Assembly: GCA_963829055.1 (NCBI GenBank)
Contig: CAWHHI010000020.1
Coordinates: 192,001 to 256,000 of the forward strand
Origin: an uncultured Gemmatimonadaceae bacterium
GTDB lineage: Bacteria; Gemmatimonadota; Gemmatimonadetes; Gemmatimonadales; Gemmatimonadaceae
Direction of reading: 5' to 3'
DNA: 64,000 bases
The notes under the pieces are model-generated. The model was given only the letters and a program-made list of their open reading frames with translations, searched no databases and was not told the origin of the DNA. Numbering within the stretch: the stretch's first letter is position 1; each line of letters opens with the position of its first letter. Positions 1 to 64,000 of this stretch are shown here, in pieces. The translations under genes were made by a program, and so were the position numbers.

Positions 1-679
1 GTGAGCCAGCGGGAGCGTGGTCCGTTCTCGTGCCAAGGTAGGACTCAACTGGCCAGGGAGCTCCAACGAACGCTACTCCAACAAAGACATGACGTCGAAC
101 GGCGCCTGATAGCTCAAGCTTCCGGATGACATCTCGCCGATCAGGTGCATTCAGGAACTCCTCGATCCACCCGGGTACGGCAGAGCCATAGGGATCCACC
201 GCACCTCCCGTACTCGTCATGACAAGGTGCACTTGACCGGTCCCGGACTCGCGAAAGCACGCTATGGAATCGATCCGGAGGGCTTCTAGGACAGCATAGA
301 TACGTGGGTTCTGACGCTCCAACCACCAATCAACCGGCGTGAAGCCCTTGATGTGGGCCAGCTCGCAGTCTTGGAGCGCCTTTTCTAACCTCTTCTTGAT
401 CTCCTTCACTCGGGCGTTAGGCCTTAAGACCACGTCCCAGTCGCCGGCCACGTTGAGTGCGAGTGGCCCCAGTGCTGGACCAATATTCCAAGTCTCCACG
501 CGAGCGCTGTCCACAGCGCCGACGCATTCGATGGCTATGTCAGGCGCCGTTTCGTCGCCGACGCGGAGATCATACAGCCCAGGCCCGCGCCCGTCGTCGT
601 GGAGGACTACTGGGCGTCCGAGCTCGCGCTGGAGAATGCGTCGCGCGCATTCCTCGAAGGTTATGCGTGATTGCCTCAT
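1..679 (-). CDS. Gene-cassette ORF, hypothetical protein, 3' end beyond the window; possible PD-(D/E)xK-like nuclease
   Basis: Own translation: ATG at 679, 16 nt after the attC core GTTAGGC, open to base 1 (MRQSRITFEECARRILQRELGRPVVLHDDGRGPGLYDLRVGDETAPDIAIEC...). Absent from the ORF track because no stop is in the window. Codon usage is AT-richer than in flanking genes. Confidence 0.75.
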   Translation of the reverse strand, partial: MRQSRITFEECARRILQRELGRPVVLHDDGRGPGLYDLRVGDETAPDIAIECVGAVDSARVETWNIGPALGPLALNVAGDWDVVLRPNARVKEIKKRLEKALQDCELAHIKGFTPVDWWLERQNPRIYAVLEALRIDSIACFRESGTGQVHLVMTSTGGAVDPYGSAVPGWIEEFLNAPDRRDVIRKLELSGAVRRHVFVGVAFVGAPWPVESYLGTRTDHAPAGS

Positions 680-695
680 CGCGACCGCGTTAGAT

Positions 696-795
696 GCCTA
701 ACGCCGAGCATCACCTGCGGGCGGATCAAATAAAAGGCAGCGGCGCAGCCGCTGCCACTCCGCGGCCCGCCCGTCTGGTGCATGCAACGTTAGGT
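696..795 (-). other. attC site (complete)
   Basis: Minus strand: R'' ACCTAAC-GTTGC-ATGCACC ... GGTGAT-GCTCGGC-GTTAGGC R'. Imperfect palindrome with one extra base in the L'' arm, directly downstream of the 824-1822 gene. Confidence 0.92.
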
Positions 796-823
796 AGCGG
801 GTGCGTGATGCCAGCCCGTCTCC

Positions 824-1822: not shown

Positions 1823-1860
1823 CTGGAGGTCTCTTGGGTGGATGTGAAGAAAAACAGTAG

Positions 1861-2090: not shown

Positions 2091-2117
2091 GGCCGCGCCA
2101 GCGCGAACGACACAGCA

Positions 2118-4238: not shown

Positions 4239-4252
4239 CGACCTCGTCTGGC

Positions 4253-4305: not shown

Positions 4306-4353
4306 GTTCCCCGCACGTTCGAAGAAACATGACCTACACCCTGCGAGGCCACC

Positions 4354-4923: not shown

Positions 4924-4953
4924 GCGACTTCTCACGCCTCACGGAGTACAGCG

Positions 4954-13074: not shown

Positions 13075-13100
13075 GCGCAACGTAGATGACAGTGGCGGCG

Positions 13101-13191
13101 GCCTAACGCATGAAGTTGATGCAAGGGCACCTCATAGGATGCGGCGCCGCCGCCTCCACACCGCCCTTGCCAGGTCCAGCACACGTTAGGT
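13101..13191 (-). other. attC site (complete, somewhat degenerate)
   Basis: gcctaac...gcaagggc...gcccttgc...gttaggt. R'' flank gggcacctaac is identical to the cassette start at 13712-13722, and the stop TAA lies in R''. Confidence 0.85.
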
Positions 13192-13683
13192 GCCCGGCGG
13201 TTCACGAGGCGGTGTTGCACACGGGACGCGCACAGCACGAAAGTTTGGTGACAGCGCCGGTCGGTGCCCCGACTCGTCCACGGTCACTGTTTTGAAATCG
13301 CTGAGCGGCTCGAGGCGTCCGGCTAGCGTGTCGCCCCGGACGCCGAGCCGGCCCCCATACCCCGTCGAGAATCGATCGGGCTGTGGCTCGAGCAGCAAGA
13401 CCTCCACGGAGTCGCGGAATGTCGTCCAGATCGCATTCGCCCGCCCCGAGGGTGTCCGCGGGAGCGGACGCCAACGGCGCTGGCTCGGCTGCTCGGCTGC
13501 AACGGAGGCCGAATCGAGGAACACGTCGCTGGTCGGAATGACGGCTGCCGGTCCGTCCCAATGCAGAACCCGATAGCAGCCGGCAGCGGCGCGCTCGGCG
13601 TCAGAGAGTGTAATCGAAGGGTGAGAGTGGCCTGGCGTCCGGCAGGCGATGCAAACGACGGCGAGTACAACCCCGACGCGCAT
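13186..13683 (-). CDS. Hypothetical lipoprotein; gene cassette
   Basis: RBS aaggagag and CIAC lipobox; the ORF fills the space between two attC sites. Confidence 0.75.
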   Translation of the reverse strand: MRVGVVLAVVCIACRTPGHSHPSITLSDAERAAAGCYRVLHWDGPAAVIPTSDVFLDSASVAAEQPSQRRWRPLPRTPSGRANAIWTTFRDSVEVLLLEPQPDRFSTGYGGRLGVRGDTLAGRLEPLSDFKTVTVDESGHRPALSPNFRAVRVPCATPPREPPGT

Positions 13684-13715
13684 GTCGAGCTCTCCTTACG
13701 CACATGGACGTGGGC

Positions 13716-13814
13716 ACCTAACGCCTGAAGTTGAGCTGCGGGTGAGTTCAATAGAATGCGGCGCCGCAGGCGCCGCCACGGCAGATCGCCCGACAGCTCC
13801 AACGGACGTTAGCC
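13716..13814 (-). other. attC site (complete)
   Basis: acctaacgcctgaagttgagctg...cagctccaacggacgttagcc, with an extra base in the L'' arm. Confidence 0.92.
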
Positions 13815-13868
13815 CGCAAGCGCGCGATGCGTCAGTCGAAATCCCACAACGGCTAGACCCGTCGAGCA

Positions 13869-15780: not shown

Positions 15781-16007
15781 ATCCGGCTCAACGCTGTTTG
15801 TATTGCGTGGGAAGGACCATCTTGCGGCTTGACCATTCAGATGCGACACGTCCCTGCCGTCTAACTCGGCTCAATGCGGCGAGGTAGCGCGTCATCGCTG
15901 GAAGTACCGTGCTCACAATGTAGTGCGACATCCGCCCCTAGGGCTCCTGTGTTAGGCGGCGAGGCGTGCCGCCTAACCCAATGGCGGCCGAGCATCGTTT
16001 CTGAGGG
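15781..16007 (-). other. attI region of array 1; crossover core at 15792-15786
   Basis: Non-palindromic. Minus strand AATACAAACAGCG|TTGAGCCGG matches the R'' flank of the first attC (ccggctaac) apart from one extra base. Homologous to 1861-2090. Confidence 0.7.
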
Positions 16008-16985
16008 TCACGGCTCCGGACGACGGCGCTCGAACGCTACGTCCAACGGACTCCGGACGCGACAACTCCCTTCGCCTGGACGAAGGTACTCGAGGGTCGT
16101 CGAGAGATCCCGGTGGCCGACCAGGTTCTGTACGTCCCGCGCGTCGCTCCCGGTCCGCAGGAGATGCATCGCGAACGAGTGCCGCAACATCCGTGGTGTC
16201 ACCCGCGCCGTCAGACCTGCCGCACGCCCCGCACGCGACACGGCACGCTGAATCGTCGTGGCATTCACGTGGTGGCGGCGCCGCTGACCGCTCGCGCGAT
16301 CCATGTGCTGGCGCGCAGCCGGAAAGAGCCACGTCCACCGCCAGTCGCGCACGGCGCGCCCTGACGCGAGCAGCTCGACGTAGCCACCACCGGAAACCGT
16401 GTCGCGCATGTGCTGCCGCCGCACCGCGTCGACCTGCGCCGCGATCGCGTCCCGGAGCGCGTCCGGCAACAGCGCGAATCGACGCAGCGTACCATCGTCG
16501 CCGCGAATGCGAATGCGCCGTCGGCCGATATCAACGTCACTCACGCGCAACGTCGCGCACTCCATCAGCCGGAGCCCGGTGCCGTACAGGAGCGACACGG
16601 CCAAGTGCCGCGCAGGTGCGACCGCCGCCAGCAGCCGAGCGACCTCGTCGGGCGCCAGTACTTCCGGCGGGCCGATTCGCCGAGGCGTCTTCGGAAGCTT
16701 CGGCACGCGCCACTCCGCTAGGCCGAGTACGTCGCGATAGAGAAACACGAGCGACGCCCTCGCCTGTCTCGAGGTGCTCGGTGTCGCGCGCCGCTCAGTC
16801 ACCAGCCAGTCGAGGAAGCGCCCGCTCTCCGACGCATCGACGGTGCTCGGATGACGAAGCTCGCAGAAACGCACGAAGCGCACGATCCACCATCGATAGG
16901 CACCCGCGGTGCGCGCACTCAGACGCCGCGACCGCGCCACCACGCGAACCCGCGCCAATAAACGCTCATCGCCTGTCGCATTCAT
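16008..16985 (-). CDS. intI: Integron integrase, divergent or degenerate
   Basis: SAM-like N-terminus (RTAGAYRWWIVRFVRF, QARASLVFLYRDVL), LLYGTGLRLMEC, integron-specific WTWLFPA...RRRHH segment, LRHSFAMHLL, GHRDLSTTLEY, VRSPLD. Confidence 0.9.
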   Translation of the reverse strand: MNATGDERLLARVRVVARSRRLSARTAGAYRWWIVRFVRFCELRHPSTVDASESGRFLDWLVTERRATPSTSRQARASLVFLYRDVLGLAEWRVPKLPKTPRRIGPPEVLAPDEVARLLAAVAPARHLAVSLLYGTGLRLMECATLRVSDVDIGRRRIRIRGDDGTLRRFALLPDALRDAIAAQVDAVRRQHMRDTVSGGGYVELLASGRAVRDWRWTWLFPAARQHMDRASGQRRRHHVNATTIQRAVSRAGRAAGLTARVTPRMLRHSFAMHLLRTGSDARDVQNLVGHRDLSTTLEYLRPGEGSCRVRSPLDVAFERRRPEP

Positions 16986-19388: not shown

Positions 19389-19419
19389 CGAACGGTCGAC
19401 CTGACGACAGATAGTCTCG

Positions 19420-20169
19420 TTAGGTCGACCGCATGAGGCTACAGCCAGCCTCCTGCGCCATGAGCATTCCGAACACGCCCGTCGGCATGAGGGTCGCGCC
19501 AGGCACGAGGTTGGCCTTGATCTCCTCGTAGACCGTGCGGAAGTCCTGCTTCGTCGCGGTCGCGGTGCGAGACGAGAAGCCGCGCGTCGCGAGATCACAC
19601 CCGATGAAGATGACGCCGCGCGCCGTCAGCGATTTGATGAGCGGCGTCGGCTTCTCGCTCACGACTTCCTTGCCCTCGGCATCCAGCTTCTGATAGTAGA
19701 TGTTCCGCGTCACCGGCTTCTTCGTCTTCTCGTCCAGCGTCTTGGTGGACGTGCCGATGTCGTACTTCGCCCACATCGCGTCGTTGTAGAGCAACGGCAC
19801 GGCGCGGTGGCGCAGGACCACGACCACACTCGCGTCGGAATCGCCCGTCCCGAAGACGTCCTTCACGGAGCCCAGGTAGCTCATCGCGTGGTAGAGCGCC
19901 GTGCCGTCCTCGATCTCAGGAGAGTCGAACACCGCTTTGTGTTTCGCCGTGATGCGATCCATCCAGCTCGGATCCCACTTCACTGGCGGTAGCTGCGGAG
20001 GCGGCGATGACGGCGGTGCCGCCGCGGGCGTCGGGGCCTGGCTGGCGGCGGTAGCAGCCGTGGCGGCGGGCGTGCACGCCGCAGCAGCAATGGCAGCGGC
20101 ACCAACGGCGAGCTCACCAATGAACTGGCGGCGTGGAGTGCGAGAGTCGTTGTTTGACGAGCGGCTCAT
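19420..20169 (-). CDS. Tat-exported DsrE-like hypothetical protein
   Basis: PRRQFIG twin-arginine signal; HKAVFDSP, VVLRH, RGVIFIGC and AQEAGC motifs. Confidence 0.75.
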   Translation of the reverse strand: MSRSSNNDSRTPRRQFIGELAVGAAAIAAAACTPAATAATAASQAPTPAAAPPSSPPPQLPPVKWDPSWMDRITAKHKAVFDSPEIEDGTALYHAMSYLGSVKDVFGTGDSDASVVVVLRHRAVPLLYNDAMWAKYDIGTSTKTLDEKTKKPVTRNIYYQKLDAEGKEVVSEKPTPLIKSLTARGVIFIGCDLATRGFSSRTATATKQDFRTVYEEIKANLVPGATLMPTGVFGMLMAQEAGCSLMRST

Positions 20170-23525: not shown

Positions 23526-24769
23526 ATGCCCACCGCCCCGCTCGGTATCGGCTTCATCGGCAGCGGCTTCAACACGCGCTTTCACATCCAGGCGCTTCCA
23601 GGCCGTTCGCGACGCCGAGGTGCGCGGCGTCTGGAGCCCGAACAGGAAGAACGCCGCTTCGGCGGCCGAGCTCGCGCGCACGCTCGACGTCGGCGACGCG
23701 AAGGCGTACGCGAGCATCACCGACATGGTCGCGGACCCGGCCATCGACGCGATCTGGCTCTGCGGACCGAATCACGCCCGCATTGAGAACGTGTCGGAGA
23801 TCGTACACGCAATCGAGTCGGGGCGCGGTGACGCTCAAAGGCATCGCCTGCGAGAAGCCGCTCGCCCGCAACGTGGCCGAGGCGAAGCGGGTGAACGAGC
23901 TCGTTAGGCGCGTCAAGCTGCCGACCGGCTATCTCGAGAACCAGCTGTTCTCTCCGCAGGTGGAGCTCGGGAAGTCCCTGCTCTGGGCCCGTGGCGCGTC
24001 GAACACGGGACGCCCCTACCTCGCCCGTGCAGCCGAGGAGCACAGCGGTCCGCACATGCCGTGGTTCTGGCGCGGCGAGCTGCAGGGTGGCGGCGTGCTG
24101 AACGACATGATGTGCCACTCGGCCCTCGTCGTCAGGCACCTGCTCACGAAGCCGGGCGCGTCGTACGACACCGTGAAGCCGGTTCGCATCACCGGTCACA
24201 TCGCGAGCCTCAAGTGGTCGCGCCCGGAGTACGCGAAGCGGCTGTCGAAGACGATGGGCAAGGAAGTCGACTACACGAAGACGCCGTCCGAGGACTTCGC
24301 GAGCGTCATGATCGAGTTCGAGACGGACGACGGCTTCACCGTGCTCGGCGAAGCGTCCACATCGTGGAGCTTCGTCGGCGCGGGGCTTCGCCTGTCGGCC
24401 GAGTTGTTAGGCCCGGAGTACTCGATGTCGTGGAACACGCTCGACTCGGGGCTCAAGCTGTTCTTCAGCCGCGAGGTGAAGGGCCGTCAGGGTGAGGACC
24501 TCGTCGAGAAGCAGAACGCCGAGATGGGCTTGATGCCGGTGGTCGCGAGCGAGGCGGCCGCGTATGGCTACGAGGCGGAGGACCGCCACTTCGTGCGCGT
24601 CTTTCAGGGCAAGGAAGAGCCCAAGCTCACGTTCGACGATGGCGTCGAAGTCGTGAAGATCCTCATGACCGCGTATGCGAGCGCCGAGCAGGGGAAGACG
24701 CTCGCGTTTCCGCCGAAGGGGATCGACAAGTTCGTGCCCCAGGTCGCACGCGGAGCGTGGAAGCCGTGA
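23526..24769 (+). CDS. Gfo/Idh/MocA family oxidoreductase (apparent frameshifts near 23600 and 23830)
   Basis: IGFIGSGF, CEKPLARN and GGGVLNDMMCH motifs. Confidence 0.85.
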
Positions 24770-26753
24770 CGGCACCTACGCGAGCGCGAGGCGGCATGGC
24801 CTCGGGGCAGAGCTCGACGCTCGTGCAGACGGTGGACATCGAGACGCCGGAGCTGGTGACGTTCAGCTACACCATCGCTGGCGTCGGCTCGCGCGTCGCC
24901 GCGGCGCTGATCGACTATCTCCTGTGCCTCCTGCTGTTCATCGCGATCATCGTCGGGATGGCGTTCATCGGCGCGAGCCGATTGGTGCGGTTAGGCGGAA
25001 CGTCGTCGGACGCGTGGGCGCTCGCGATCGTGGTGCTCGCGCAGTTCTTCATCCTGTGGGGCTACTACGTGCTGTGGGAGGGGCTGGCCGACGGCCAGAC
25101 TCCGGGCAAGCGCTACATGCGCCTCCGCGTCGTGAGCGACGGTGGCTACTCGGTGTCGTTCGCCGGCTCGGCCATCCGCAATCTCGTCAGGATCGTGGAC
25201 ATGCAACCGGTGTTCACGTATGGCGCCGGGATCGTGAGCATTCTCGCGACGAAGCAGGGCAAGCGACTGGGTGATCTCGCCGCGGGAACGCTCGTGGTGC
25301 GTGAACAACTTGTTCATCGGGAATCGGGAATCGGGCGGGACGCGCGCCGAAGGCGGGCGGCGGGAATCGAGCAAAGACCGTGGTGCAGCATCGGCCGGCG
25401 ACGGTGCCGCGTCAGGCACGGCTCACCGACGACGAGTTCGCCGTCGTCGAGCGGTTCATGGAGCGACGGTCAGCCTTGGATCCGGTGCGACGCGTTGAGC
25501 TCGCGACTCGCCTCGTGGAGCGGTTCGCGAGCGCGTTCGTCGGCTATTCAACTACTGCTGGCAGCCCGCTCGATCAGCTGTTCGAGCTGTACGCGGACGA
25601 GCGTCAGGCGCGCGCGAGCGGCGCGGTCGTGGGACGCGAGACGGGCGCGGCGCGTGAGCGTCACGCCATCGTCGCGTCAGGCACACCGAGATGGTCGTCG
25701 TTCGCGGCGCGGCTCGATCGCGCGCAGCACGGCGGGCTCAAGTCGCTCGGCGAGGATGGCGTGCGGAACTTCGTGGCCGAGTATCGGGACCTCGCGGCGG
25801 ATCTCGCGCGATTGCAGACGGCGGCGCGCGGTCGCGAGCGCGATGAGGTGTTCTACCTGAGCCGCCTCATGGCCGGCGCGCACAACCTGTTGTATCGCGG
25901 TCGCGCGCTGACGCTGAACGATTTATGGCGGACGTTCGCGGTCGACGCGCCGCGCGAGGTGCGACGCTCGTGGCGTCCCATCGCGCTCGCCGGGCTGTTG
26001 ATGTTCGGGCCGGCGATCATCGCGTACACAGCGGTGGTGCGCGATCCACCGGTCGCGCGCGTGTTCATTCCCCCGGCGATGCTGGACCGCGCGGAGGATG
26101 GCGTGAGGCGAGCGCGGCAGGGCCAGGGATACATCGAGGATCCCGAGCTGTTCCGTCCGGTGATGGCGACGAGCATCATCGCGAACAACGTGCAGGTGAC
26201 GTTCGCGGCGTTCGCCATGGGAATCGCGTTAGGCATCGGGACGGTGATCGTGCTCGTGACGAATGGCGTCAGCATCGGCGGCGTGTTCGGGCTCTACGCG
26301 TCGAAGGGGATCGGAACGCTGCTGGTCAAGTTCGTGGCGCCACACGGCGTGCTGGAGCTGACCGCGATCTGCATCGGCGGCGGGGCCGGCTTGCTGCTGG
26401 CGGCGGCGATATTGATCCCGGGGAATCGTCCGCGGAGCGTGGCGCTGCGCGAGAACGGTCGGCGCGCGATCCGGCTGATCGCGGCGTCGACGGTGCTGCT
26501 GCTGATTGCGGGAACGCTGGAGGGTTTCGTGTCGCCGATCGAGACGTGGCCGCTCTCGTGGAAGCTCGCGGTCTCGGCCGCGACGGCGGTGTTCCTGGCG
26601 GCGTACTTGTCAGGCGGACGCAGAGCGGGTCGTTCCTGCGACTCCAGCGGAGACAATACCGGTCGGAGACGACTTGCTCGGCCTTCGGCCAGCTATCCCG
26701 GCGACGCGACGTCAGCAGAACTGCGTTCGACAACCCGTCTCAGACTCGCATAG
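24766..26753 (+). CDS. RDD-domain plus SpoIIM-domain membrane protein (frameshift near 25390)
   Basis: IAGVGSRVAAALID, GQTPGK and KRLGDLAAGT (RDD); YRDLAADLA, PHGVLEL and AGTLEGFVS (SpoIIM). Confidence 0.8.
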
Positions 26754-34042: not shown

Positions 34043-36667
34043 ATGACCCCGTTTCTCCTTGCTGCCCTGGCGCTCACCGCGCGAATCTCGACGCTTCAGG
34101 CCGTCGCCCAGGACTCGACGGCGCCGACCGCGGTCGCCGTCCGCGCGCGCGGTGGTGTGCGCATTGATGGACGCCTGGACGAAGAGGCATGGAAAGCGGC
34201 GACCCCGGTCACGTCGTTCACGCAGCGAGACCCCGATGCCGGCCGACCCGCAACCGAGCGGACAGAGGTCCGCATCATCTATGACGCCGCCGCGATCTAC
34301 ATCGGCGCGCGGCTCTTCGATTCGACGGGCGCCGTGCGCAGTCGATTGGGACGGCGAGATAGCGAGCTGTCCGGTTCGGATTGGTTCTTCGTGACGCTGG
34401 ATAGCTACCACGACCACCTCACGGCGTATCGCTTCGGCGTCAATCCGAGTGGCGTTAGGCGTGACGAGAAGGTGAGTACCGAGACGGACGAAGACGAGTC
34501 GTGGGACCCTATCTGGGAGGCCGCTGCGACACGCGACGCCGCGGGTTGGATGGCGGAGCTCCGCATTCCACTCAGCCAGCTTCGCTTTCGCGACGTTGAC
34601 GAGCAGACGTGGGGCATTCAGCTCGTCCGCCAGATCGCACGCAACAATGAAGAGAGCTGGTTCGCGTTCGTCCCGAAACGCGAGCGCGCCGTTGTGGGTC
34701 GCTACGGACATCTCACCGGAATGCGCGGTCTCATGCCGCGCGGCCGCCTCGAGCTGCTCCCATACGCCGTTAGCCGCGTCCGCTACGATACGCCTGCGCA
34801 GAGCGAGGACGTTCCGTTCGTGAACCCGTTCCGCGACGGCTCGGAGCAGACGGCATTGTTAGGTCTCGACCTCAAGTATCGATTGGCGAGCAACGTAACG
34901 CTGGACGCGACGGTGAATCCGGATTTCGGTCAGGTTGAAGTCGATCCCGCCGTTGTGAACCTCACTGCGTTCGAGACGCGCTTCGAGGAGCGGCGACCGT
35001 TCTTCATCGAAGGCTCCGAGATCTTCGGCTTCAATGGGACGGAACTGTTCTATTCGCGCCGCATCGGAGCACCACCTCCAGGCCGTCCGCCGTCAGGCGC
35101 GGTCTACGACAACATGCCCGAGAACGTGACGATTCTCTCGGCAGCGAAGCTGTCGGGGAAGGCGCGTGGGTGGTCACTCGCGGTGCTCGACGCCGTGACG
35201 GGCCGCGAGCACGCGTCCTATGTCGGCGAGAATGGCGACCGAGGCCAAGCGGAGGTTGCGCCACTCGCGAACTACTTCGTTGGACGAGCGCGTCGCGAGC
35301 TGCACGAAGGCAACACAGTGGTCGGCGCCATGGCGACGGCCGTGCACCGGGACCTCAGCGACAGTGCGCTCACCTCTCGCGTGCGCTCGCGGGCATTCTC
35401 AGGAGGAATCGATTTCTCACACGACTGGGACGAGCGCAAATGGTCGCTGGAAGGCTTCGCCGCCGGCTCGCACATCACCGGCTCGAACGCTGTGATCACC
35501 GCTGCCCAGCGGTCGTCGGCGCGCTACTATCAACGCCCCGATGCGTCGCGCCTAACGCTCGACTCGTCCGCCACGACGCTCGCGGGCTTCGCCAGCCGTC
35601 TCGAGCTGCGGCGAGCCGCGGGCGAACACTGGCGTGGAGACGCGACTGCCGCGACGGTGAGTCCCGGGTTCGAGACGAACGACATCGGCTTCCAGGCGCG
35701 CGCCGACCAGCACTCCGCGACCGCGACGGTGCAGTACGTCCAGGAGGAACCGGGACGGATCCTGCGTGAGTGGAGCCTCGAGGGCGGTCCGCGCGGCACC
35801 TGGAACTGGGATGGCAATCGCATCGGGACGCGGCTCAACTTCGAGGGTGATGCGCAACTGCTGAATTACTGGAGTGGCGATTTCGAGGTGAACCGCGAGT
35901 TCGCCGTCCTCGATGACAGGCTGACACGTGGCGGTCCGCTCGTGCGCTCACCGGCCCGAACGAACGTGTCGGTCAGCATCGAGAGCGACCCGCGGCGGGT
36001 GTGGACGCTCGACATGGGCGTCGACGGCTGGTGGGGGCCGGTGAGCCGCAGTGCATCGGTCGACGTCGAGGTCGGGGTCAAGCCGGCGCCCAACTGGAAC
36101 GTGTCCATCGCCCCGGAGTGGTCACGCGACCGCGCCAGCAACCAATACGTGACGTCGGTCGCCAATGCGCTGGCTCCCGCGACGTTCGGCCGCCGGTACG
36201 TGTTCGCCGACCTCGATCAGACGGAACTCTCCATCGCGACCCACATCAACGTGACATTCACGCCGTCACTGTCACTCGAGGTATTCGCTCGGCCATTCAT
36301 CGGGAGCGGCACGTTCGGCGCCTTGAAGGAACTGACTCAACCGCGCGCGCTTTCCTTCGCTCGGTATGACAGCGTGGGGACCGTCACGCGCAACGGCAGC
36401 GAGGTCATCGTCGACCCGGACGGCGACGGGCCGGCAGATGAATTCGGGGTGGACGACGAGACGTTCACAACGCGGTCGCTCCGCGGGAACGCGGTGCTGC
36501 GGTGGGAGTGGCGGCCGGGCTCGACGCTGTTTCTCGTCTGGCAGCAGCAGCGCGAGGTGGAGGACGCGAGCGGCGACCTGCGGCTCCGCCGCGACCTCCG
36601 TCGACTCGGTCGGGCGAGCCCGGACAACGTGTTCGTCATCAAGGCGACCTGGTGGCTCAATCCATAG
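34043..36667 (+). CDS. CBM9-like plus DUF5916 domain protein
   Basis: IDGRLDEEAW, WMAELRIPLSQLRF, TVNPDFGQVEVD and FEERRPFFIEG; C-terminal beta-barrel-like strands. Confidence 0.88.
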   Translation: MTPFLLAALALTARISTLQAVAQDSTAPTAVAVRARGGVRIDGRLDEEAWKAATPVTSFTQRDPDAGRPATERTEVRIIYDAAAIYIGARLFDSTGAVRSRLGRRDSELSGSDWFFVTLDSYHDHLTAYRFGVNPSGVRRDEKVSTETDEDESWDPIWEAAATRDAAGWMAELRIPLSQLRFRDVDEQTWGIQLVRQIARNNEESWFAFVPKRERAVVGRYGHLTGMRGLMPRGRLELLPYAVSRVRYDTPAQSEDVPFVNPFRDGSEQTALLGLDLKYRLASNVTLDATVNPDFGQVEVDPAVVNLTAFETRFEERRPFFIEGSEIFGFNGTELFYSRRIGAPPPGRPPSGAVYDNMPENVTILSAAKLSGKARGWSLAVLDAVTGREHASYVGENGDRGQAEVAPLANYFVGRARRELHEGNTVVGAMATAVHRDLSDSALTSRVRSRAFSGGIDFSHDWDERKWSLEGFAAGSHITGSNAVITAAQRSSARYYQRPDASRLTLDSSATTLAGFASRLELRRAAGEHWRGDATAATVSPGFETNDIGFQARADQHSATATVQYVQEEPGRILREWSLEGGPRGTWNWDGNRIGTRLNFEGDAQLLNYWSGDFEVNREFAVLDDRLTRGGPLVRSPARTNVSVSIESDPRRVWTLDMGVDGWWGPVSRSASVDVEVGVKPAPNWNVSIAPEWSRDRASNQYVTSVANALAPATFGRRYVFADLDQTELSIATHINVTFTPSLSLEVFARPFIGSGTFGALKELTQPRALSFARYDSVGTVTRNGSEVIVDPDGDGPADEFGVDDETFTTRSLRGNAVLRWEWRPGSTLFLVWQQQREVEDASGDLRLRRDLRRLGRASPDNVFVIKATWWLNP

Positions 36668-36901: not shown

Positions 36902-38306
36902 ATGCTCGCACCACTCGTCGTCGCCGCCGCGCTGCTCACCCAGCAACCGAATCAGGGTGTCCGCCAGTTCGTCTCCGTCTCCGATTCCGTCGTCGCACTG
37001 ACGAACGTCCGGGTCATCGACGGCACCGGCGCCGCCCCGCGCGCCGGTCAGACCGTCGTCATGAAGGGCGGCGTCATCCAATCGATCGGCGACGCGGCCT
37101 CGGCGAAGATCCCCGCTGGCGCCCGCACCATGGACCTCGCGGGACGTACCGTCATGCCCGGCTACGTGATGCTCCACGAGCATCTGTTCTATCCATCGGG
37201 CGGCGGCGCGATCTACAACGAGCAGGGGTACAGCTTCCCGCGGCTCTACCTCGCCGGTGGCGTCACGACCATGCGCACCGCCGGCAACATGTCCGGGTAC
37301 GCCGACATCGGGATCAAGAAGGCGATCGACGAAGGCACAATGCTCGGGCCGACGGTCGACGTCACCGCGCCCTACCTCGAGGGCCCTGGCCTCCCGATTC
37401 CGCAGGTGAAAGCGCTCCGCGACGCCGCCGACGCACGAAAGATGGTGAACTACTGGGCCGATGAGGGCGCGACGTCGTTCAAGGCCTACATGCACATCAC
37501 GCGCGCGGAGCTTGGCGCCGCGGCGCAGGAGGCGCACAAGCGGAATCTCAAGATCACCGGGCACCTGTGCTCGGTGACGTTCAAGGAAGCCGCGGCGTTA
37601 GGCATCGACGACCTCGAGCACGGCTTCGTCGTCGCCAGCGACTTCGTCCCCGACAAGAAGCCTGACGAGTGCCCGGCCGGCAACGCCGTGCAGCGCTCCA
37701 TCGCGGCACTCGACGTGAACGGCGCCGGCGCCCGCGATCTCATCGCCGAGCTCGTGCGCCGGAAGGTCGCGATCACGTCGACGCTCACGATCTTCGAGAC
37801 GTTCGCGGCATCGAATGCCTAACGCGCCGACGAAAGCGCTCGACGCGCTGCTTCCCGAGGCACGCCGGCAGTATGAGCAACGCCGAGCGGCGATCGCGCA
37901 GTCGCCGGACACGACGTGGAACGTGCTCGTGAGGAAAGAGATGCAGCTGGAGAAGATGTTCGCGGACGCTGGCGGGCTGCTCGTCGTCGGCACGGACCCG
38001 ACGGGCTTCGGCGGCGTCGTCGCGGGCTACTCGAACCAGCGCGCGCTCGAGCTGCTGGTGCAGGCGGGCTTCACGCCGGTCGAGGCGATCAAGGTCGCGA
38101 CGCTCAACGGCGCGAAATACCTCGGCCGCGACGCGAAGATCGGGACGCTCGCTGCTGGAAAGCAGGCGGACCTGGTGGTCGTTCGGGGCGACCCGTCCAC
38201 GAAGATCGACGACGTCGAGAACGTCGAGATCGTGTTCAAGGGCGGGGTCGGCTACGACTCGGCCAAGATCTTCGAGTCCGTGAAGGGACGAGTCGGGTTG
38301 CACTAG
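36902..38306 (+). CDS. Amidohydrolase family protein (frameshift near 37815)
   Basis: MPGYVMLHEH, GGVTTMRTAG, TGH, LEHG, VGTD and GKQADLVVV. Confidence 0.88.
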
Positions 38307-41769: not shown

Positions 41770-42849
41770 ATGCCGCAGCGCACCGGTAGCGCCACCCTCC
41801 CGCTTCACACCGGGCGAGCACCCGCGTGGCTGTTCGGACGTATGGCCAGGCTCGCGCCGGAGATCGTCGAGGCCATCGTGCTCGCGCACGGGCGGAGCGC
41901 GTTCCTCGAGCGACTCTCGGACCCGCACTGGTTCCAGGCGTTCGGCTGCGTGCTCGGCTTCGACTGGCACTCGAGCGGTGTGACGACCACGGTGTGTGGC
42001 GCGCTCAAGGAAGGGCTCGCTCCTCGTGCCGCCGACCTCGGCCTCTACGTCGCCGGCGGCAAGGGCAAGACGTCGCGGCAGACGCCTAACGAGCTACAGG
42101 AGTTCGGCGCGCGGCTCGGCATGGACGGCGACCGGCTCGCCTACAACAGCCGCATGGCCGCGAAGGTGGACTCCGCCGCCGTACAGGACGGCTTCGACAT
42201 CTACCATCACAGCTTCTTCCTCTCGAGTGATGGCGAGTGGGCCGTCGTGCAACAGGGCATGCGCGAGCACGACGGCAACGCGCGCCGCTACCACTGGCTC
42301 GGCTCCCGGGTGAGCGATTTCGTGAACGAGCCGCACGCGGCTATCGCGAGCGACGCGCAGGAGCAGACGGTGCTCAACCTGGTGGCGGCTGAATCGGCGG
42401 ACAGTCGCACGGCGTCGGCGGAATTCGCGCGTCTCGAGCCGCGGCTCGTCGATCGTGAGATCGCGAGAGTGATCACGCTCGCGCTTCCGGGCCGCCACTG
42501 GGTGGACGTGCGGAAGGACATCAACCCGGCGCATCTGCGGAAGGTGCTGCTGTCCACGTACGAGGCGGCGCCGCAGAACTTCGAGGAGATGCTCGCGGTC
42601 CCGGGCGTTGGCGCCAAAGCGGTGCGTGCGCTCGCGCTGGTGGCCGAGGTGGTGTATGGCTCGCCGGCGAGCGTGAAGGATCCGGCGCGGTTCAGCTTCG
42701 CGCATGGCGGCAAGGATGGGCATCCCTACCCGGTCAATCGCGACGTGTACGACCACTCGGTGGAGTGGCTTCGTGAGGCGGTGTCGAAGGCGAAGATCGG
42801 CCGGAGCGAGCAGCTCCACGCGCTGCAGCGATTGGCGGACTGGCGTTAG
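41770..42849 (+). CDS. DUF763 domain protein
   Basis: LPLHTGRAPAWLF, DWHSSGVTT, AKVDSAAVQDG and FAHGGKDGHPYPV. Confidence 0.9.
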   Translation: MPQRTGSATLPLHTGRAPAWLFGRMARLAPEIVEAIVLAHGRSAFLERLSDPHWFQAFGCVLGFDWHSSGVTTTVCGALKEGLAPRAADLGLYVAGGKGKTSRQTPNELQEFGARLGMDGDRLAYNSRMAAKVDSAAVQDGFDIYHHSFFLSSDGEWAVVQQGMREHDGNARRYHWLGSRVSDFVNEPHAAIASDAQEQTVLNLVAAESADSRTASAEFARLEPRLVDREIARVITLALPGRHWVDVRKDINPAHLRKVLLSTYEAAPQNFEEMLAVPGVGAKAVRALALVAEVVYGSPASVKDPARFSFAHGGKDGHPYPVNRDVYDHSVEWLREAVSKAKIGRSEQLHALQRLADWR

Positions 42850-43127
42850 GTTCCGGGACGCTTCGCCGGCACGCCCTCGAGCATGCCACGCACGCTGAGG
42901 TCCTCGTCAACGTCGGGCCAGTGAATGCCCGTCCCCTCGCCGATGATCTCGTACCGTGACTCGCTGATCGGGCGTCGCGTCGGACAACCGCCACGACCAC
43001 GAGAGCGGGTACGCCGATCGTCCGTCCATCTGCGAGCACGCGCGATGATCATGTCCTCGGTCACCTCGACCGCGGTCACTCGCGCCGTTCCACTGCCACC
43101 GCTATTGGGCTTCGCCGCAGTGCTCAC
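42846..43127 (-). CDS. DUF2442 domain protein, putative antitoxin (internal frameshifts)
   Basis: LADGRTIGVP in one frame, GTGIHWPDVDEDLSV in another. Confidence 0.8.
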   Translation of the reverse strand: MSTAAKPNSGGSGTARVTAVEVTEDMIIARARRWTDDRRTRSRGRGGCPTRRPISESRYEIIGEGTGIHWPDVDEDLSVRGMLEGVPAKRPGT

Positions 43128-60845: not shown

Positions 60846-61039
60846 AACCTGATGACTGGCAACTAAGCACTGACGACTTGTTACCGACCGGACGGTTCGC
60901 GATGCCAGCCCTCTCAGGTCTCCAGCCCAAACCCAGCCTCCGTCCGTAGCAGCCACCAGCCTTGCTGCCCCAACGGCTCGTCCCCACTATACGTAGTTAG
61001 GCAGCACCCCCCCCGCCTGGCTCTATTCGGAGGACCGGC

Positions 61040-63546
61040 ATGAAGTCAGTGTTTGCCGCCGCGGCATCGAGCGCAGTGCTCGTCGTCGCGGGTTCTACTG
61101 TCTACTTCGGTCCTCGCCCGATCGAGGCGGCCCGCCTCCCGAGCTACGGGCATGCTCCCCTCCCCAAACGCGCGCCCGCTGTCTCCAACGAAGCCCTAAC
61201 AGCTGTCGTCAGAGGCACTTGCGGCACCTGCCACAGCGAAAAGACGCGCTCCGGCAATCTCGTCCTCGCCACGTTCGACGTCGCCAACGCCGCGTCGACG
61301 CCCGAGACGGCCGAGAAGATGATCGCCAAGCTGCGCGCCGGGATGATGCCGCCGCCCGGGCGCAGACGACCCGGCGGCGACACCCTCGTCGCGCTCGCTG
61401 ACGACGCTCGAGCGGCTCGTCGACCACGCCGCCGCGGCGAAGCCCGAACCCGGCGCGCGCACCTTCCAGCGCCTGAATCGCGCCGAGTACGAGCGCTCCG
61501 ATCAAGCGACCTGCTCGACGCTCGACGTCGACGCCGGCAAGTGGCTGCCGCTCGACACGAAGAGCGCGAACTTCGACAACATCGCCGACGTGCAGACTGC
61601 CGTCGGCCACGCTGCTCGACGCCTACCTCGACGCCGCGAGCGAGATCAGCCGCCTCGCGGTCGGCGACCCGAAGGCCAGCGTCACGTCCGCGACCTACAA
61701 GCTGCCGCGCCTCGCCTCGCAGATGGACCAGGTCGAAGGCGCGCCGATCGGCACGCGCGGCGGCATCGCCGTCACGCACAACTTCCCGGCCGACGGCGAG
61801 TACGTCTTCGCGGTCGTCGCTGCACGCGATCCCGACCGGCCAGCTCTTCGGCTCGACGCTCCGTTCGACGAGAAGATCGAGGTCTCGGTCAACGGCGAGC
61901 GCGTCGCGCTGCTCGACATCGATCGCTGGATGTCGCAGGCCGACCCGAACGGCCTGGAGATCAAGACGAACCCGATTCCGGTCCGCGCCGGGCCGCAGCG
62001 CGTCACCGCGGCGTTCCTCACGACGTTCGACGGCCCGGTCAACGACCTGATCGCGCCGATCGGCCACAGCATCGCCGACACGCAGATCGGATCGCAGATC
62101 GGGCATCACGAGCATGCCCGCACCTGCAGGACTTCACCGTCACGCGGGCCGTACAACCCGACCGGCGTGTCCGAGACGCCGAGCCGGCAGTCGCATCTTC
62201 ACGCTGTCGCCCGACGCACGCCGACGAAGCGCGCCCCTGCGCCGAGAAGATCGTCACCCGACCTCGGCGGCGAGGCCTATCGCCGGCCGCTGACGCCGAG
62301 CGACGTGAAGGCGCTCATGGCGTTCTACGATGAAGGCGCTACGCGAGGGCGGATTCGAGCTCGGGATTCGCACGGCGCTCGAGGCGATCCTGGCGAGCCC
62401 GCACTTCGTCTTCCGCATGGAGGACACGCCGCGCGGCGCCAAGCCCGGCGACGCGCGTATGCGATCGGCGAGCTCGACCTCGCCTCGCGGCTCTCGTTCT
62501 TCCTCTGGGGCGAGCCGCCCGACGATCGCTGATCGCGGTCGCAAAGCAGCGGACGCGCTGTCGCACTCCGACGGTGCTCAAGGCGCAGACGCAGCGCATG
62601 CTCGCCGATCCGCGCTCCGAGGCGCTGGCGACGCGCTTCGCCGCGCAGTGGCTCCGGCTTCAGGACATCGAGAAGGTCCACCCGGACGCGCTCCAGTACC
62701 CGGACTTCCACAAGCAGCTCGCCGACGACATGCAGCGCGAGACGGAGCTGTTCTTCTACTCAGCTCGTCCGCGAGAACCGCAGCATGCTCGATCTGTACA
62801 CGGCCGACTACACGTACGTCAACGAGACCGCTCGCGAAGCACTACGGCATTCCGGGCGTCACCGGCGACGAGTTCCGCCGCGTGCGCTATCCGGACGACC
62901 GGCGCCGCGGCCTGCTCGGCCAGGCGAGCGTGCTGACGCTGACGTCGCACGCGAACCGCACGTCGCCGGTGCTGCGCGGCAAGTGGGTGATGGAAGTGCT
63001 TGCTCGGCTCGCCGCCGCCACCGCCGCCGCCGGACGTGCCCGATCTCGAGCAAGACCGGCGAGGCGAAGGAAGGCCGCATGCTCACGACGCGCGAGCGGA
63101 TGGAGATGCATCGCGTCGAACCCGCAGTGCCGCTCGTGTCACCAGTTCATGGATCCGATCGGTCTCGCGCTCGACAACTTCGACGTGACCGGACAGTGGC
63201 GCATTCGCGAGAACGGCGCGGCGCTCGACACGCGCGGGCAGCTTCTACGACGGCACGCCGGTCTCGAATCTCGGCCGAGCTGCAGCGCGGCGCTGCTCAA
63301 GCGCCCGACGCCGCTGATCCGCACGTTCACGCGAACCTGATGGCGTACGCGCTCGGCCGTCGCATCGAGTACTACGACAGCCCGATCGATCCGCCACATC
63401 GCGAACGACGCGGCCGCCGAGCGGCTACACAGTGCAGCGACTTCATGCTCGGCGTCGTGACGAGCGACGCGTTCCGGGCGAGGCGCGTACCCGCGGCCGC
63501 GGCCGACGTCGGCAGATCGACGACACTGACCAGCTCGAAACCCTAA
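61040..63546 (+). CDS. DUF1592-family cytochrome c-like multidomain protein (many apparent frameshifts)
   Basis: CGTCH, KLRAGMMPP, RLNRAEY, LASRLSFFLW, FAAQWL, RTSPVLRGKWV, CRSCH and LMAYALGR. Confidence 0.85.
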
Positions 63547-63570
63547 CGACGTACGCGGAGATTCTGGTCC

Positions 63571-64000
63571 ATGCATTTCCTGACCGGCAAGCCTCTTCCT
63601 CGCCGCACGTTCGTCCGGGCATGGGCGCCACGTTCGCGCTGCCGTTCCTCGACGCGATGCTGCCCGATCGGTTCGCGCCGCGAGTCGTCTCGCGCCGGAT
63701 CGCACGCGCTTCGTCGCCATCGAGATGGTGCACGGCGCCGCCGGCTGCAACGAGCTCGGCGCGAAGCTGAACCTCTGGTCGCCGGCCGCAGCCGGGACGG
63801 CAGTTCGACCTCGGCCCGACGGCGCTCAAGTCGCTCGAGCCGTACCGCGAGCACCTGACGATCGTCAGCAACACGGACGTCCGGCAGGCCGAGCCGGTGA
63901 CGCCGAAGGAGATCGGCGGCGACCACTTCCGGTCGAGCGCCGTGTTCCTCACGCAGTCGCATCCGAAGCAGACCGAGGGCTCCGACGTCTACGTCGGGAC
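63571..64000 (+). CDS. DUF1552 domain protein, partial and frameshifted
   Basis: LPRRTFVR, FALPFLDAM, IEMVHGAAG and GGDHFRSSAVFLT; usual partner of DUF1592. Confidence 0.82.

What the first reader, a model, noticed from the sequence alone, without database searches (positions are those of the whole stretch)
1..64000. The integron core heptamer GTTAGGC is a highly iterated motif across the whole window, including inside ordinary genes
Seen: by hand I count about 79 CCTAAC/GTTAGG hexamers, about 59 of them GCCTAAC/GTTAGGC. Outside the integron (17000-64000) there are about 56 hexamers and 42 heptamers, against about 5 heptamers expected from base composition alone at an assumed 67% GC. The hexamers split evenly between strands (about 29 vs 27). 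Genes accommodate the motif in several frames using codons otherwise rare here: GCG-TTA-GGC (26228, 37597), CGC-CTA-ACG (35551), CCT-AAC (42085), GTT-AGG (23903, 34454). It also supplies stop codons (19420, 42847, 63544). Established: GTTRRRY is the IntI crossover core, and frame-independent iterated motifs are the signature of uptake sequences (DUS/USS) and HIP1. Inference: this lineage has a genome-wide signal (uptake, methylation/repair bias, nucleoid-protein site or recombination site) identical to the preferred integron core. That could seed the chromosome with IntI secondary sites and offer a route for gene capture. I know of no description of this motif, but cannot check.
Basis: partly seen in the sequence, partly recalled or inferred. 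Interest (0 to 1): 0.9.

Follow-up and report, generated by a model that had tools for sequence, protein, structure and literature searches.

The report
Hyper-abundant octamer in Gemmatimonadaceae genomes
The genome is peppered with about 5,000 copies of the 8-base word CGTTAGGC, a signature like the DNA-uptake tags of Neisseria and Haemophilus, now seen in a subset of genera of a common soil bacterial family and identical to the core of that lineage's integron recombination sites.

Summary
The window holds 59 GTTAGGC against 2.8 expected. The real unit is the octamer CGTTAGGC/GCCTAACG, with 5,004 copies in the 7.78 Mb genome. That is 49x a trinucleotide-aware null and 22x a synonymous-codon-shuffle null.

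The motif is strand-symmetric, shows no replichore polarity, uses all four stop-free frames and arises by substitution. Sites are conserved 2-3x above background and avoid each other within about 300 bp.

The host is an uncultured Gemmatimonadaceae. 70 of 251 family genomes (18 of 68 genera) are motif-rich, with genus-specific variants ("dialects"). None of 92 genomes from other families of the phylum is enriched.

The octamer equals the lineage's attC R' core plus one base. However, only about 4 window copies lie in attC-like hairpins, and integron integrase does not track the motif.

Vsr, RecC, AddAB, two methyltransferases and pilins also fail to track it. ComEC and type IV pilus genes are family-wide.

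Best reading (about 0.4): an uptake-sequence-like self-tag spread by molecular drive. No function was shown. I found no published description.

The parts
1..64000 (.). 59 copies of GTTAGGC/GCCTAAC, of which 50 are the full octamer CGTTAGGC/GCCTAACG, scattered through genes and spacers on both strands
   Evidence: One search lists every position. One search counts 50 octamers and 80 hexamers. The expectation is 2.76 heptamers.
26227..26234 (+). Octamer read as xCG-TTA-GGC (rare Leu codon TTA) inside a SpoIIM-like gene (25380-26753)
   Evidence: This frame holds 1,169 of the 3,007 genome-wide sites that lie in confident genes. 45.7% of all TTA codons lie in the octamer.
35550..35557 (-). Octamer whose complement is read as xGC-CTA-ACG in the DUF5916 gene (33992-36667)
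   Evidence: 556 sites genome-wide use this frame.
42084..42091 (-). Octamer whose complement is read as xxG-CCT-AAC-G in the DUF763 gene (41770-42849)
   Evidence: 823 sites genome-wide use this frame.
23902..23909 (+). Octamer read as xxC-GTT-AGG-C (rare Arg codon AGG) in a GFO/IDH/MocA-type oxidoreductase gene (23462-24769)
   Evidence: 438 sites genome-wide use this frame.
37817..37824 (-). GCCTAACG whose TAA ends the N-terminal fragment of an amidohydrolase gene that continues in another frame (36845-37822 and 37815-38306)
   Evidence: Genome-wide, 183 of 701 TAA stops and 160 of 1,473 TAG stops lie inside the octamer.
42844..42851 (+). End-variant CGTTAGGT supplying the TAG stop of the DUF763 gene
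   Evidence: CGTTAGGT is the commonest single-mismatch variant, 827 copies against 48 expected.
19418..19425 (+). End-variant CGTTAGGT whose complement supplies the TAA stop of the minus-strand gene 19420-20265
691..796 (-). True attC hairpin (R'' ACCTAAC ... R' C-GTTAGGC), lying far from the integrase
   Evidence: DNA fold of -32.8 kcal/mol. attC covariance model 31.9 bits, but this was a training sequence.
13096..13192 (-). True attC hairpin of the integron, with R' = C-GTTAGGC
   Evidence: Model score 45.4 bits, but this was a training sequence.
13711..13815 (-). Weak attC-like element
   Evidence: Model score 16.9 bits, E 0.019; not a training sequence.
15858..15962 (+). Weak attC-like or attI-proximal element ending in GTTAGGC. 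It overlaps the inverted pair GTTAGGCGGC/GCCGCCTAAC at 15948-15980, just downstream of intI.
   Evidence: Model score 18.6 bits, E 0.0064. Inverted repeat I15.
16008..16985 (-). Integron-type tyrosine recombinase (intI), on the same strand as its cassettes
   Evidence: Pfam Phage_integrase plus SAM_4. TIGR02249 best E 1.5e-78 in G000.

Best explanation
CGTTAGGC is a lineage-specific genomic 'self-tag' of the same kind as the DNA uptake sequences of Neisseriaceae (DUS) and Pasteurellaceae (USS). I infer that a sequence-specific protein recognises the double-stranded octamer in either orientation. The most likely candidate is a component of the type IV pilus/ComEC DNA-uptake route. Fragments that carry the word are then favoured for import and recombination. 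Over time this bias (molecular drive) converts near-matches all over the chromosome into the word by ordinary base substitution. It does so regardless of reading frame, and at the cost of rare codons and some amino-acid changes. About one copy per recombination-sized stretch is enough. Shifts in the recogniser's specificity give genus-level dialects.

Shown here: the statistics, anatomy, conservation, spacing, taxonomic distribution and dialects of the motif, and the presence of generic uptake genes.

Inferred: that uptake is the biased step, and the identity of the recogniser.
For: (1) Scale. 5,004 copies, one per 1.56 kb. That is 49x an order-2 Markov null and 22x a codon-shuffle null, with all 20 contigs alike.

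(2) DNA-level, orientation-free recognition. 2,547 forward and 2,457 reverse copies. There is no replichore or local polarity: neighbouring sites share a strand in 2,589 of 4,984 cases. Family-wide the totals are 91,481 against 91,223. All four stop-free frames are used (1,169, 438, 556 and 823), and only 21 sites fall in the two stop frames.

(3) The motif overrides coding preferences. 45.7% of TTA codons and 15.8% of CTA codons lie in the motif, as do 183 of 701 TAA stops. 44 of 72 lineage-specific sites differ in amino acid from the orthologue.

(4) Origin by substitution. Only 11 of 184 non-shared sites have a gap in the counterpart. There is no flanking conservation beyond 8 bp.

(5) Maintenance with turnover. 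46 of 89 G000 sites are conserved in G001 against 19.8% for arbitrary 8-column windows. For G004 it is 35 of 103 against 17.2%. Many non-shared counterparts differ at 2 or more positions.

(6) Saturating spacing. Gaps of 100 bp or less make up 1.4% of gaps against 6.3% expected, and gaps of 200 bp or less 4.4% against 12.3%.

(7) Absence from likely foreign DNA. Three deserts totalling 128 kb have zero copies.

(8) Dialects. CGTTATGC is raised in g1, g9, g51 and g22, not raised in g52, g58, g43 and g73, and equal or dominant in g37, g60 and g48. The end positions are tolerant: TGTTAGGC 435 copies, CGTTAGGT 827.

(9) Generic uptake machinery is present. ComEC in 31 of 31 genomes, PilM in 238 of 251, and 7 pilin-like genes plus a ComEA-type HhH motif in G000.

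(10) The rival drivers I tested do not track the motif.
Against: No uptake bias, competence or receptor has been shown for any Gemmatimonadota. 0 papers in the library contain both 'Gemmatimonad' and 'uptake sequence'.

ComEC and PilM are equally present in motif-poor genomes, so they explain nothing about the patchy distribution (18 of 68 genera; within g52, 5 rich and 2 poor genomes). DUS and USS, by contrast, are family-wide (recalled).

No G000 pilin reaches the ComP_DUS family threshold (best E 0.08). The two minor pilins I tested give cross-hits in rich and poor genomes alike.

Internal single-mismatch variants are very few, 9-27 copies for the rare-background words. That fits strong selection on a cellular function as well as it fits drive.

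There are no DUS-style inverted pairs acting as terminators: 13 inverted pairs within 60 bp.

Site conservation and even spacing are also expected for a selected intracellular binding site.
Confidence: 0.4

Rival explanations
1. The octamer is the binding or activity site of an intracellular protein and is kept at high, even density by selection rather than by uptake bias. Candidates are a Chi-like recombination regulator read by a helicase-nuclease from either direction, or a nucleoid, segregation or self-recognition protein.
For: Sites are conserved 2-3x above background. Spacing is even. Internal variants are very few. The motif is absent from probable foreign DNA. An 8-mer of comparable density per strand is what Chi-type self-markers look like (recalled).
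Against: There is no orientation bias relative to replication or locally; known Chi and KOPS sites are polar (recalled). RecC was not found in 0 of 31 genomes. AddAB-like pairs occur in 4 of 8 rich and 8 of 23 other genomes, and in neither form in G014, the densest genome of the 31-genome set. An enrichment of 22-49x, and paying for it with rare codons, far exceeds what I recall for Chi. No candidate protein was identified.
Confidence: 0.22
2. The excess is a mutational by-product. A DNA methyltransferase and a linked short-patch or mismatch repair activity repeatedly restore the word. This is the older explanation offered for HIP1 and for CCWGG-related words.
For: HIP1, the closest octamer precedent, is bound up with methyltransferases (abstract and passages of PMC13756078). 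The commonest variants are C-to-T changes at the two terminal cytosines (TGTTAGGC 435, CGTTAGGT 827). G000 carries an Eco57I/MmeI-type MTase next to a helicase domain (apparently frameshifted) and a Dam-like MTase.
Against: Vsr was found in 0 of 8 motif-rich genomes and 3 of 23 others. G000 has no match to N6_N4_Mtase, N6_Mtase or C5 DNA_methylase; the genome is 86% complete. The Eco57I-type gene is present in 5 of 5 test genomes, rich and poor alike. The Dam-like gene is present in the 3 poor genomes tested and missing from rich G014. Single-position repair cannot hold six internal positions almost invariant (inference).
Confidence: 0.1
3. The motif is functionally tied to integrons. It is either a field of IntI secondary recombination sites, or the target of an IntI-derived DNA-binding activity, that promotes cassette capture or genesis.
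For: There is exact identity with the lineage's attC R' core plus the preceding base. All 18 G021 attCs and both window attCs in the alignment read CGTTAGGC. The chance that a random octamer contains GTTAGGC on either strand is about 16 in 65,536 (my arithmetic). 183 TAA stops sit in GCC-TAA-CG, the arrangement I recall for many cassette ends. IntI passes the curated cut-off in 145 of 251 family genomes.
Against: IntI does not track the motif. At genus level it is 15 of 18 rich against 40 of 50 others. At genome level it is 51 of 70 against 101 of 181, which is not corrected for phylogeny or genome size. G014 and 18 other rich genomes have no IntI hit at E<=1e-60. Relatives with long arrays using the same core are motif-poor (G021 has 65 copies, mostly in arrays). 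Only about 4 of the window's copies lie in attC-like hairpins. Close inverted pairs that could form proto-attCs are rarer than chance. Site-specific recombination does not create words by point substitution inside genes (inference).
Confidence: 0.08
4. Artefact of sequencing, assembly or binning.
For: G000 is a 20-contig metagenome-assembled genome with frameshifted genes (rpoB, chorismate synthase, MTases) and about 4% contamination.
Against: The same excess appears in 69 other assemblies of varied fragmentation, from 4 to 1,170 contigs. Sites are conserved at orthologous positions between genomes. The same assembly contains motif-free stretches.
Confidence: 0.01

Closest known systems
DNA uptake sequence (DUS) of Neisseriaceae, with its dialects and ComP minor-pilin receptor
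   Same: Non-palindromic short word at about 1 per kb, far above expectation, on both strands equally. Genus-level dialects (PMC3630211 seen as search listing and abstract only). Absent from foreign DNA. Type IV pilus and ComEC genes are present.
   Different: 8 bp rather than 10-12 bp. Not arranged as inverted pairs in terminators. Found in only 18 of 68 genera of the family. No ComP_DUS-family pilin detected. Uptake bias is untested.
Uptake signal sequence (USS) of Pasteurellaceae
   Same: Mostly inside genes, in several frames, with tolerant outer positions. Spacing is more even than random (the USS spacing is recalled). Consistent with accumulation by molecular drive.
   Different: No AT-rich flanking segments. 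Single-mismatch variants at core positions are far rarer relative to perfect copies than I recall for USS. The receptor is unknown in both cases; ComN/PpdA is only predicted for USS (PMC12616744, listing and abstract only).
HIP1 (GCGATCGC) of cyanobacteria
   Same: A hyper-abundant octamer, 15-300x over-represented by the same second-order Markov measure. It is conserved, quasi-regularly spaced and patchy within its phylum, and was recently argued to be an uptake watermark (PMC5861425 abstract; PMC13756078 abstract and passages).
   Different: HIP1 is a palindrome containing methylase sites. CGTTAGGC is not palindromic, and no tracking methyltransferase was found.
Chi and FtsK-orienting (KOPS) octamers
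   Same: 8-mers over-represented in the resident chromosome that act as self-markers.
   Different: Those are strongly co-oriented with replication and only modestly enriched (recalled). This motif shows no polarity. RecC is not found and AddAB does not track it.
Integron attC R' core site GTTRRRY
   Same: Identical letters: the lineage's attC R' reads C-GTTAGGC.
   Different: An attC is a 60-140 nt imperfect hairpin with paired R''/R' and L''/L' boxes. More than 90% of the window's copies are lone words inside ordinary genes, and IntI presence does not predict motif richness.

Membership tests
DNA uptake enhancing sequences (DUS/USS) | Short word hyper-abundant genome-wide relative to composition- and codon-aware nulls | tested here: met
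   5,004 against 102. 2,995 against 137 +/- 11 inside CDS.
DNA uptake enhancing sequences (DUS/USS) | Both orientations equally frequent, with no replication polarity | tested here: met
   2,547 against 2,457. Bins and run tests.
DNA uptake enhancing sequences (DUS/USS) | Competent cells take up DNA carrying the word preferentially | not testable with these tools
   Needs uptake or transformation assays. No report was found.
DNA uptake enhancing sequences (DUS/USS) | Type IV pilus / ComEC uptake machinery encoded | tested here: met
   ComEC in 31 of 31. PilM in 238 of 251. Pilins and a ComEA-type HhH motif in G000. These are equally present in motif-poor genomes.
DNA uptake enhancing sequences (DUS/USS) | Dedicated sequence-specific receptor (ComP-type minor pilin) | tested here: inconclusive
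   Best ComP_DUS E-value is 0.08, below the cut-off. The two minor pilins tested cross-hit in all 5 test genomes.
DNA uptake enhancing sequences (DUS/USS) | Shared by the whole family, with dialects between genera | tested here: inconclusive
   Dialects are present. But only 18 of 68 genera are rich, and genus g52 is split 5 rich to 2 poor.
HIP1-type highly iterated palindromes | Palindromic octamer overlapping methyltransferase sites | tested here: not met
   CGTTAGGC is not its own reverse complement. No tracking MTase was found.
Chi / KOPS / architecture-imparting octamers | Strong co-orientation with the direction of replication | tested here: not met
   No skew in 100-kb bins against GC skew. 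Same-strand neighbour fraction is 0.52.
Chi | A RecBCD or AddAB reader present wherever the motif is abundant | tested here: not met
   RecC in 0 of 31. AddAB-like pairs in 4 of 8 rich genomes and none in G014. These are incomplete MAGs, so the genes are 'not found' rather than shown absent.
Integron attC recombination site | R''-L''...L'-R' imperfect hairpin of 60-140 nt | tested here: not met
   Met for about 4 elements only (691-796, 13096-13192, and weakly 13711-13815 and 15858-15962). All other copies are lone words. The model is biased towards one relative's attC type.
REP/MITE-type dispersed repeats | Conserved flanks and spread by insertion | tested here: not met
   No conservation outside 8 bp. 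173 of 184 non-shared sites are ungapped substitutions.

The most novel reading that the evidence does not exclude
Some Gemmatimonadaceae have a sequence-specific DNA-uptake (or self-recognition) system whose target is the integron attC core itself. If so, these cells would preferentially import DNA from one another and also integron cassettes from any donor. That would couple natural transformation to integron gene capture. The genome-wide spread of the word would be the footprint of that filter.
Probability: 0.1. Interest if true: 0.95.

Novelty: new variant of a known kind. Interest (0 to 1): 0.8.

Why it matters
Sequence-tagged DNA uptake is documented in only two families of host-associated Proteobacteria, and HIP1 in cyanobacteria is still debated. 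A third or fourth independent case would sit in an abundant, mostly uncultured soil family, with graded densities, dialects, and rich and poor members within single genera. That would give a natural comparative system for asking how such tags arise, spread and decay, and what reads them.

It also has practical uses. The octamer count is a one-line diagnostic for binning, contamination and recent horizontal transfer in Gemmatimonadaceae metagenome assemblies. In this assembly it flags 128 kb.

The exact identity with the integron attC core is unexplained. If it is not chance, it bears on the open questions of how cassettes are recruited and exchanged in soil.

Tried and rejected
(1) Replichore or KOPS-like polarity. 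The listing seemed to show 13 of 13 and 12 of 12 same-strand sites in G061 and G151. Fetching G061:C2 showed 15 forward and 8 reverse in 60 kb, so the listing is merely sorted by strand. G000 shows no polarity.

(2) Vsr-type repair: not found in rich genomes.

(3) RecBCD and AddAB as Chi readers: they do not track the motif.

(4) Integron integrase as a correlate: no genus-level association.

(5) Methyltransferases. Three main families are not found in G000. The two that are present do not discriminate rich from poor genomes.

(6) Pilin receptor. No ComP_DUS membership, and the protein searches were swamped by pilin cross-hits.

(7) Single origin. The RpoB tree needs 2 changes for g1 plus G014, but the AU test does not reject one clade (p 0.175). 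G010 and four g1 genomes had no rpoB locus and are not in the tree.

(8) Mean protein identity of sampled genomes to G000 was too noisy, because of paralogues, to order lineages.

(9) Single-mismatch 'depletion' is not interpretable as depletion, because the null's trinucleotide counts are inflated by the motif itself. I use only the absolute counts.

(10) Motif deserts as mobile elements: rejected. They carry housekeeping genes that duplicate others in the genome at 46-59% identity (FtsK, FolD, DAHP synthase, M17 peptidase), so chimeric or mis-binned DNA, or very large foreign insertions, are more likely.

(11) DUS-style inverted-pair terminators: not seen.

(12) Amino-acid change at lineage-specific sites (44 of 72) is no higher than in other diverged windows (55-57%). 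It shows tolerance of protein change, not a special excess.

(13) timed out and was rerun faster. Earlier-findings look-ups returned nothing.

Full report
THE OBSERVATION

GTTAGGC occurs 59 times in the window. 100 dinucleotide-preserving shuffles gave 2.76 +/- 1.92, and none reached 59. There are 80 hexamers. Outside 1-17000 there are 56 hexamers (27 forward, 29 reverse) and 42 heptamers. The codon readings quoted for 26228, 37597, 35551, 42085, 23903 and 34454 are correct against my gene calls.

The window is G000:C20:192001-256000 of a 7,784,024-base assembly in 20 contigs. Genome-wide there are 5,630 heptamers, on every contig at 0.57-0.93 per kb. The base before the heptamer is C in 89% of copies. 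Nothing further out is conserved.

The unit is therefore the octamer CGTTAGGC/GCCTAACG. It has 5,004 sites against 102 expected under an order-2 (trinucleotide-aware) Markov model. It is the top-ranked 8-mer of the genome, and in raw count it is close to the commonest all-G+C words.

It permutes synonymous codons within each gene, keeping every protein and each gene's codon usage. It gave 137 +/- 11 in 10 shuffles against 2,995 observed inside coding sequence. That null is conservative, because it keeps the rare codons that the motif itself contributes.

ANATOMY

Gene calls and frames. My gene caller is crude: GC3-based, 5,560 genes, 67.7% of the genome. With those calls, 3,007 of the 5,004 sites lie wholly inside confident genes. 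All four stop-free frames are used:
- xCG-TTA-GGC: 1,169 sites
- xxC-GTT-AGG-C: 438 sites
- xGC-CTA-ACG: 556 sites
- xxG-CCT-AAC-G: 823 sites

The two frames that would read TAG or TAA hold 9 and 12 sites.

Codon cost. 45.7% of all TTA codons lie in the octamer, as do 15.8% of CTA, 9.9% of CCT and 6.2% of AGG. So do 183 of 701 TAA stops and 160 of 1,473 TAG stops.

Orientation. The two orientations are equal, 2,547 against 2,457. There is no relation to GC skew or gene strand in 100-kb bins. Neighbouring sites share a strand in 2,589 of 4,984 cases, and the longest run, 14, is within simulation.

Spacing. Sites avoid each other at short range. Gaps of 100 bp or less are 1.4% against 6.3% for an exponential distribution. 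Gaps of 200 bp or less are 4.4% against 12.3%. Only 13 inverted pairs lie within 60 bp.

Variants. The end positions tolerate change (TGTTAGGC 435, CGTTAGGT 827, CGTTAGGG 428), and one internal variant is raised (CGTTATGC 583). The other rare-background internal variants number only 9-27. The ratios below 1 in that call are not evidence of depletion, because the motif inflates the null.

EVOLUTIONARY BEHAVIOUR

I fetched about 400 kb and about 320 kb from two congeners and aligned them to G000. That gave 197 kb of alignment at 77.4% identity (G004) and 143 kb at 78.8% (G001).

G000 octamers are conserved in G001 at 46 of 89 sites, against 19.8% for arbitrary 8-column windows. In G004 it is 35 of 103 against 17.2%. 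In the reverse direction it is 46 of 86 and 35 of 68. So sites are kept 2-3 times better than background.

Yet about half are lineage-specific, and their counterparts often differ at 2-4 positions. Only 11 of the 184 non-shared sites have a gap in the counterpart, so copies arise by substitution rather than insertion. In 44 of 72 lineage-specific coding sites the overlapping codons differ in amino acid. That is about the same as other diverged windows (55-57%).

Three stretches have no copy at all: C6:5440-55037, C11:1-46789 and C6:591808-623330, with GC 0.66-0.73. They encode housekeeping genes (aro/trp enzymes, FtsK, GlnA, FolD). Several of these duplicate genes elsewhere in G000 at only 46-59% identity. 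They sit at or near contig ends of a genome with 3.95% estimated contamination. They are probably chimeric or foreign DNA, and they serve as an internal negative control.

WHO HAS IT

Record titles of the closest RpoB relatives name Gemmatimonadaceae.

Family survey. I surveyed 251 family genomes of at least 80% completeness and tabulated them from my hand transcription.
- 70 genomes in 18 of 68 genera carry 0.15 or more copies per kb. I chose this threshold after seeing the distribution.
- 163 genomes carry 0.02 or fewer per kb.
- Whole genera are rich: g9 at 1.16-1.34 per kb, and also g1, g51, g58, g65 (up to 7,821 copies in G190) and g73.
- Genus g52 is split, with 5 genomes at 0.87-0.97 per kb and 2 genomes holding 66 and 8 copies.
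- Density rises with genome size (Spearman 0.35 across genomes, 0.44 across genera).

Phylum survey. None of 92 genomes from 11 other families of the phylum has more copies than the reversed-word control.

Origins. On an RpoB tree, g1 and G014 are separated by motif-poor genomes, which needs 2 changes. An AU test does not reject a single clade (p 0.175).

Dialects. Samples of other genomes gave the following:
- G014: the same word at 47x.
- G010: the same word at 18x plus CGTTTGGC at 6x.
- G030 (another family): CGTTATGC at 14x.
- G018 and G016: no hyper-abundant 8-mer in the samples.

On the 251-genome panel, CGTTATGC behaves differently between genera:
- Raised over its reversed control in g1 (G000 583 against 142), g9 (G014 708 against 207), g51, g22 and g76.
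- Not raised in g52 (G062 13 against 115), g58, g43 or g73.
- Equal to or above the main word in g37 (G105 499 against 421), g60 (G123 363 against 110) and g48 (G058 201 against 85).

Unpublished genomes. The pooled tallies include genomes flagged as unpublished: G013, G048, G094, G241, G256, G303 and G330.

THE INTEGRON COINCIDENCE

In motif-poor relatives the few octamers cluster on one strand at cassette-like spacing. G021:C95 proved to be a textbook cassette array. Its attC sites are 96-110 nt long, with R'' GCCTAAC, conserved L boxes and R' GTTAGGC preceded by C. The window's own clear attCs (691-796 and 13096-13192, minus strand) also end in CGTTAGGC. So the hyper-abundant word is exactly the lineage's R' core plus one base.

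I found no functional tie. An attC covariance model finds only about 4 attC-like elements in the window. That model is dominated by one relative's attC type and includes the two window attCs as training rows.

The integron here is small. intI lies at 16008-16985 on the same strand as its cassettes, which extend to roughly 12.5 kb. Most of 1-12,000 is ordinary chromosome, including lgt.

The integron integrase family TIGR02249 passes its curated cut-off in 145 of 251 genomes. At E<=1e-60 it is present in 51 of 70 rich and 101 of 181 other genomes. Fisher's p is 0.014, uncorrected for phylogeny and genome size. By genus it is 15 of 18 rich against 40 of 50 others. G014 has none.

The coincidence remains unexplained. 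By my arithmetic, a random octamer contains GTTAGGC on either strand with probability of about 2.4e-4.

MECHANISM

The combination points to a DNA-level, orientation-free recognition event that biases which alleles persist, saturating at about one site per few hundred bases. The features are the extreme excess, strand symmetry, frame independence, substitutional origin, conservation with turnover, short-range repulsion, absence from foreign DNA and dialects. This is the signature of DUS and USS, and of HIP1, which a 2026 paper now also reads as an uptake watermark (PMC13756078, abstract and passages).

Generic uptake genes are present but do not discriminate:
- ComEC in 31 of 31 genomes.
- PilM in 238 of 251.
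- Seven pilin-like genes and a ComEA-type motif in G000.

Every specific driver I could test fails to track the motif:
- Vsr in 0 of 8 rich genomes.
- RecC in 0 of 31.
- AddAB-like pairs in 4 of 8 rich and 8 of 23 others.
- The three main DNA methyltransferase families not found in G000.
- An Eco57I/MmeI-type and a Dam-like MTase present in rich and poor genomes alike.
- No pilin reaching the ComP_DUS threshold, and uninformative pilin searches.

I therefore commit to uptake-linked molecular drive as the most likely mechanism, at about 0.4. A selected intracellular binding site is second, at about 0.2. The recogniser is unidentified, and no function has been shown.

KNOWN OR NEW

Full-text searches gave the following:
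- The octamer itself: only primers and unrelated constructs among the 20 of 478 hits listed.
- 'Gemmatimonad' with 'uptake sequence': 0 papers.
- Surveys of uptake sequences and iterated octamers: only Neisseriaceae, Pasteurellaceae and cyanobacterial HIP1 (listings and abstracts).

Subscription journals and supplements were not searched.

I rate this a new variant of a known kind. It is a hyper-abundant genomic word of the DUS/USS/HIP1 class. It is non-palindromic, occurs in a new phylum, is patchy at genus level, and coincides with the integron core.

Noticed in passing
whole genome G000: A second dispersed repeat family is built around GTCATTCCGAGCG / TCGGAATGAC, with about 700-1,000 copies of its core 8-10-mers. 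Related words such as TCGGGATGAC and AGTCGAGGAA are also raised. It looks like a REP/MITE-type element.
   Followed up: no
G000 C6:5440-55037, C11:1-46789, C6:591808-623330 (outside the window): Three stretches of 30-50 kb at or near contig ends have no octamer. They carry housekeeping genes that duplicate others in the genome at 46-59% identity. They are probably chimeric or mis-binned DNA, or very large foreign insertions.
   Followed up: partly
window 36845-38306: An amidohydrolase gene is split into two frames. The first part ends at the TAA of a GCCTAACG copy (37817-37824). This is either a real disruption at a motif copy or an assembly indel beside it.
   Followed up: partly
G000 C19:50635-53961 (rpoB), C6 chorismate synthase, C8 MTase genes: Several essential or long genes are broken into two frames (rpoB into 414 and 1,151 aa open frames). 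This suggests indel errors in the assembly, so gene calls and 'pseudogenes' in this genome should be read with care.
   Followed up: no
window 12500-16985: The integron has its integrase on the same strand as, and upstream of, its cassettes, the 'inverted' arrangement as I recall it. It holds only a few cassettes. A lone attC lies 12 kb further on, at 691-796.
   Followed up: partly
251 Gemmatimonadaceae genomes: Integron integrases are very common in this family: 145 of 251 genomes pass the curated TIGR02249 cut-off, and several have two or more full-length copies.
   Followed up: partly
G000 C8:73862-77248 (L276): An MmeI/Eco57I-type adenine methyltransferase lies next to an SNF2/ResIII helicase domain and is spread over three overlapping frames. 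Intact homologues of 1,024-1,137 aa exist in five relatives. It may be part of a defence system.
   Followed up: partly
G017 (sister lineage of the genus): G017 gave 14-16 separate pilin-like hits to single G000 pilin queries, against 2-7 hits in the other four genomes. This suggests an expanded pilin gene family.
   Followed up: no
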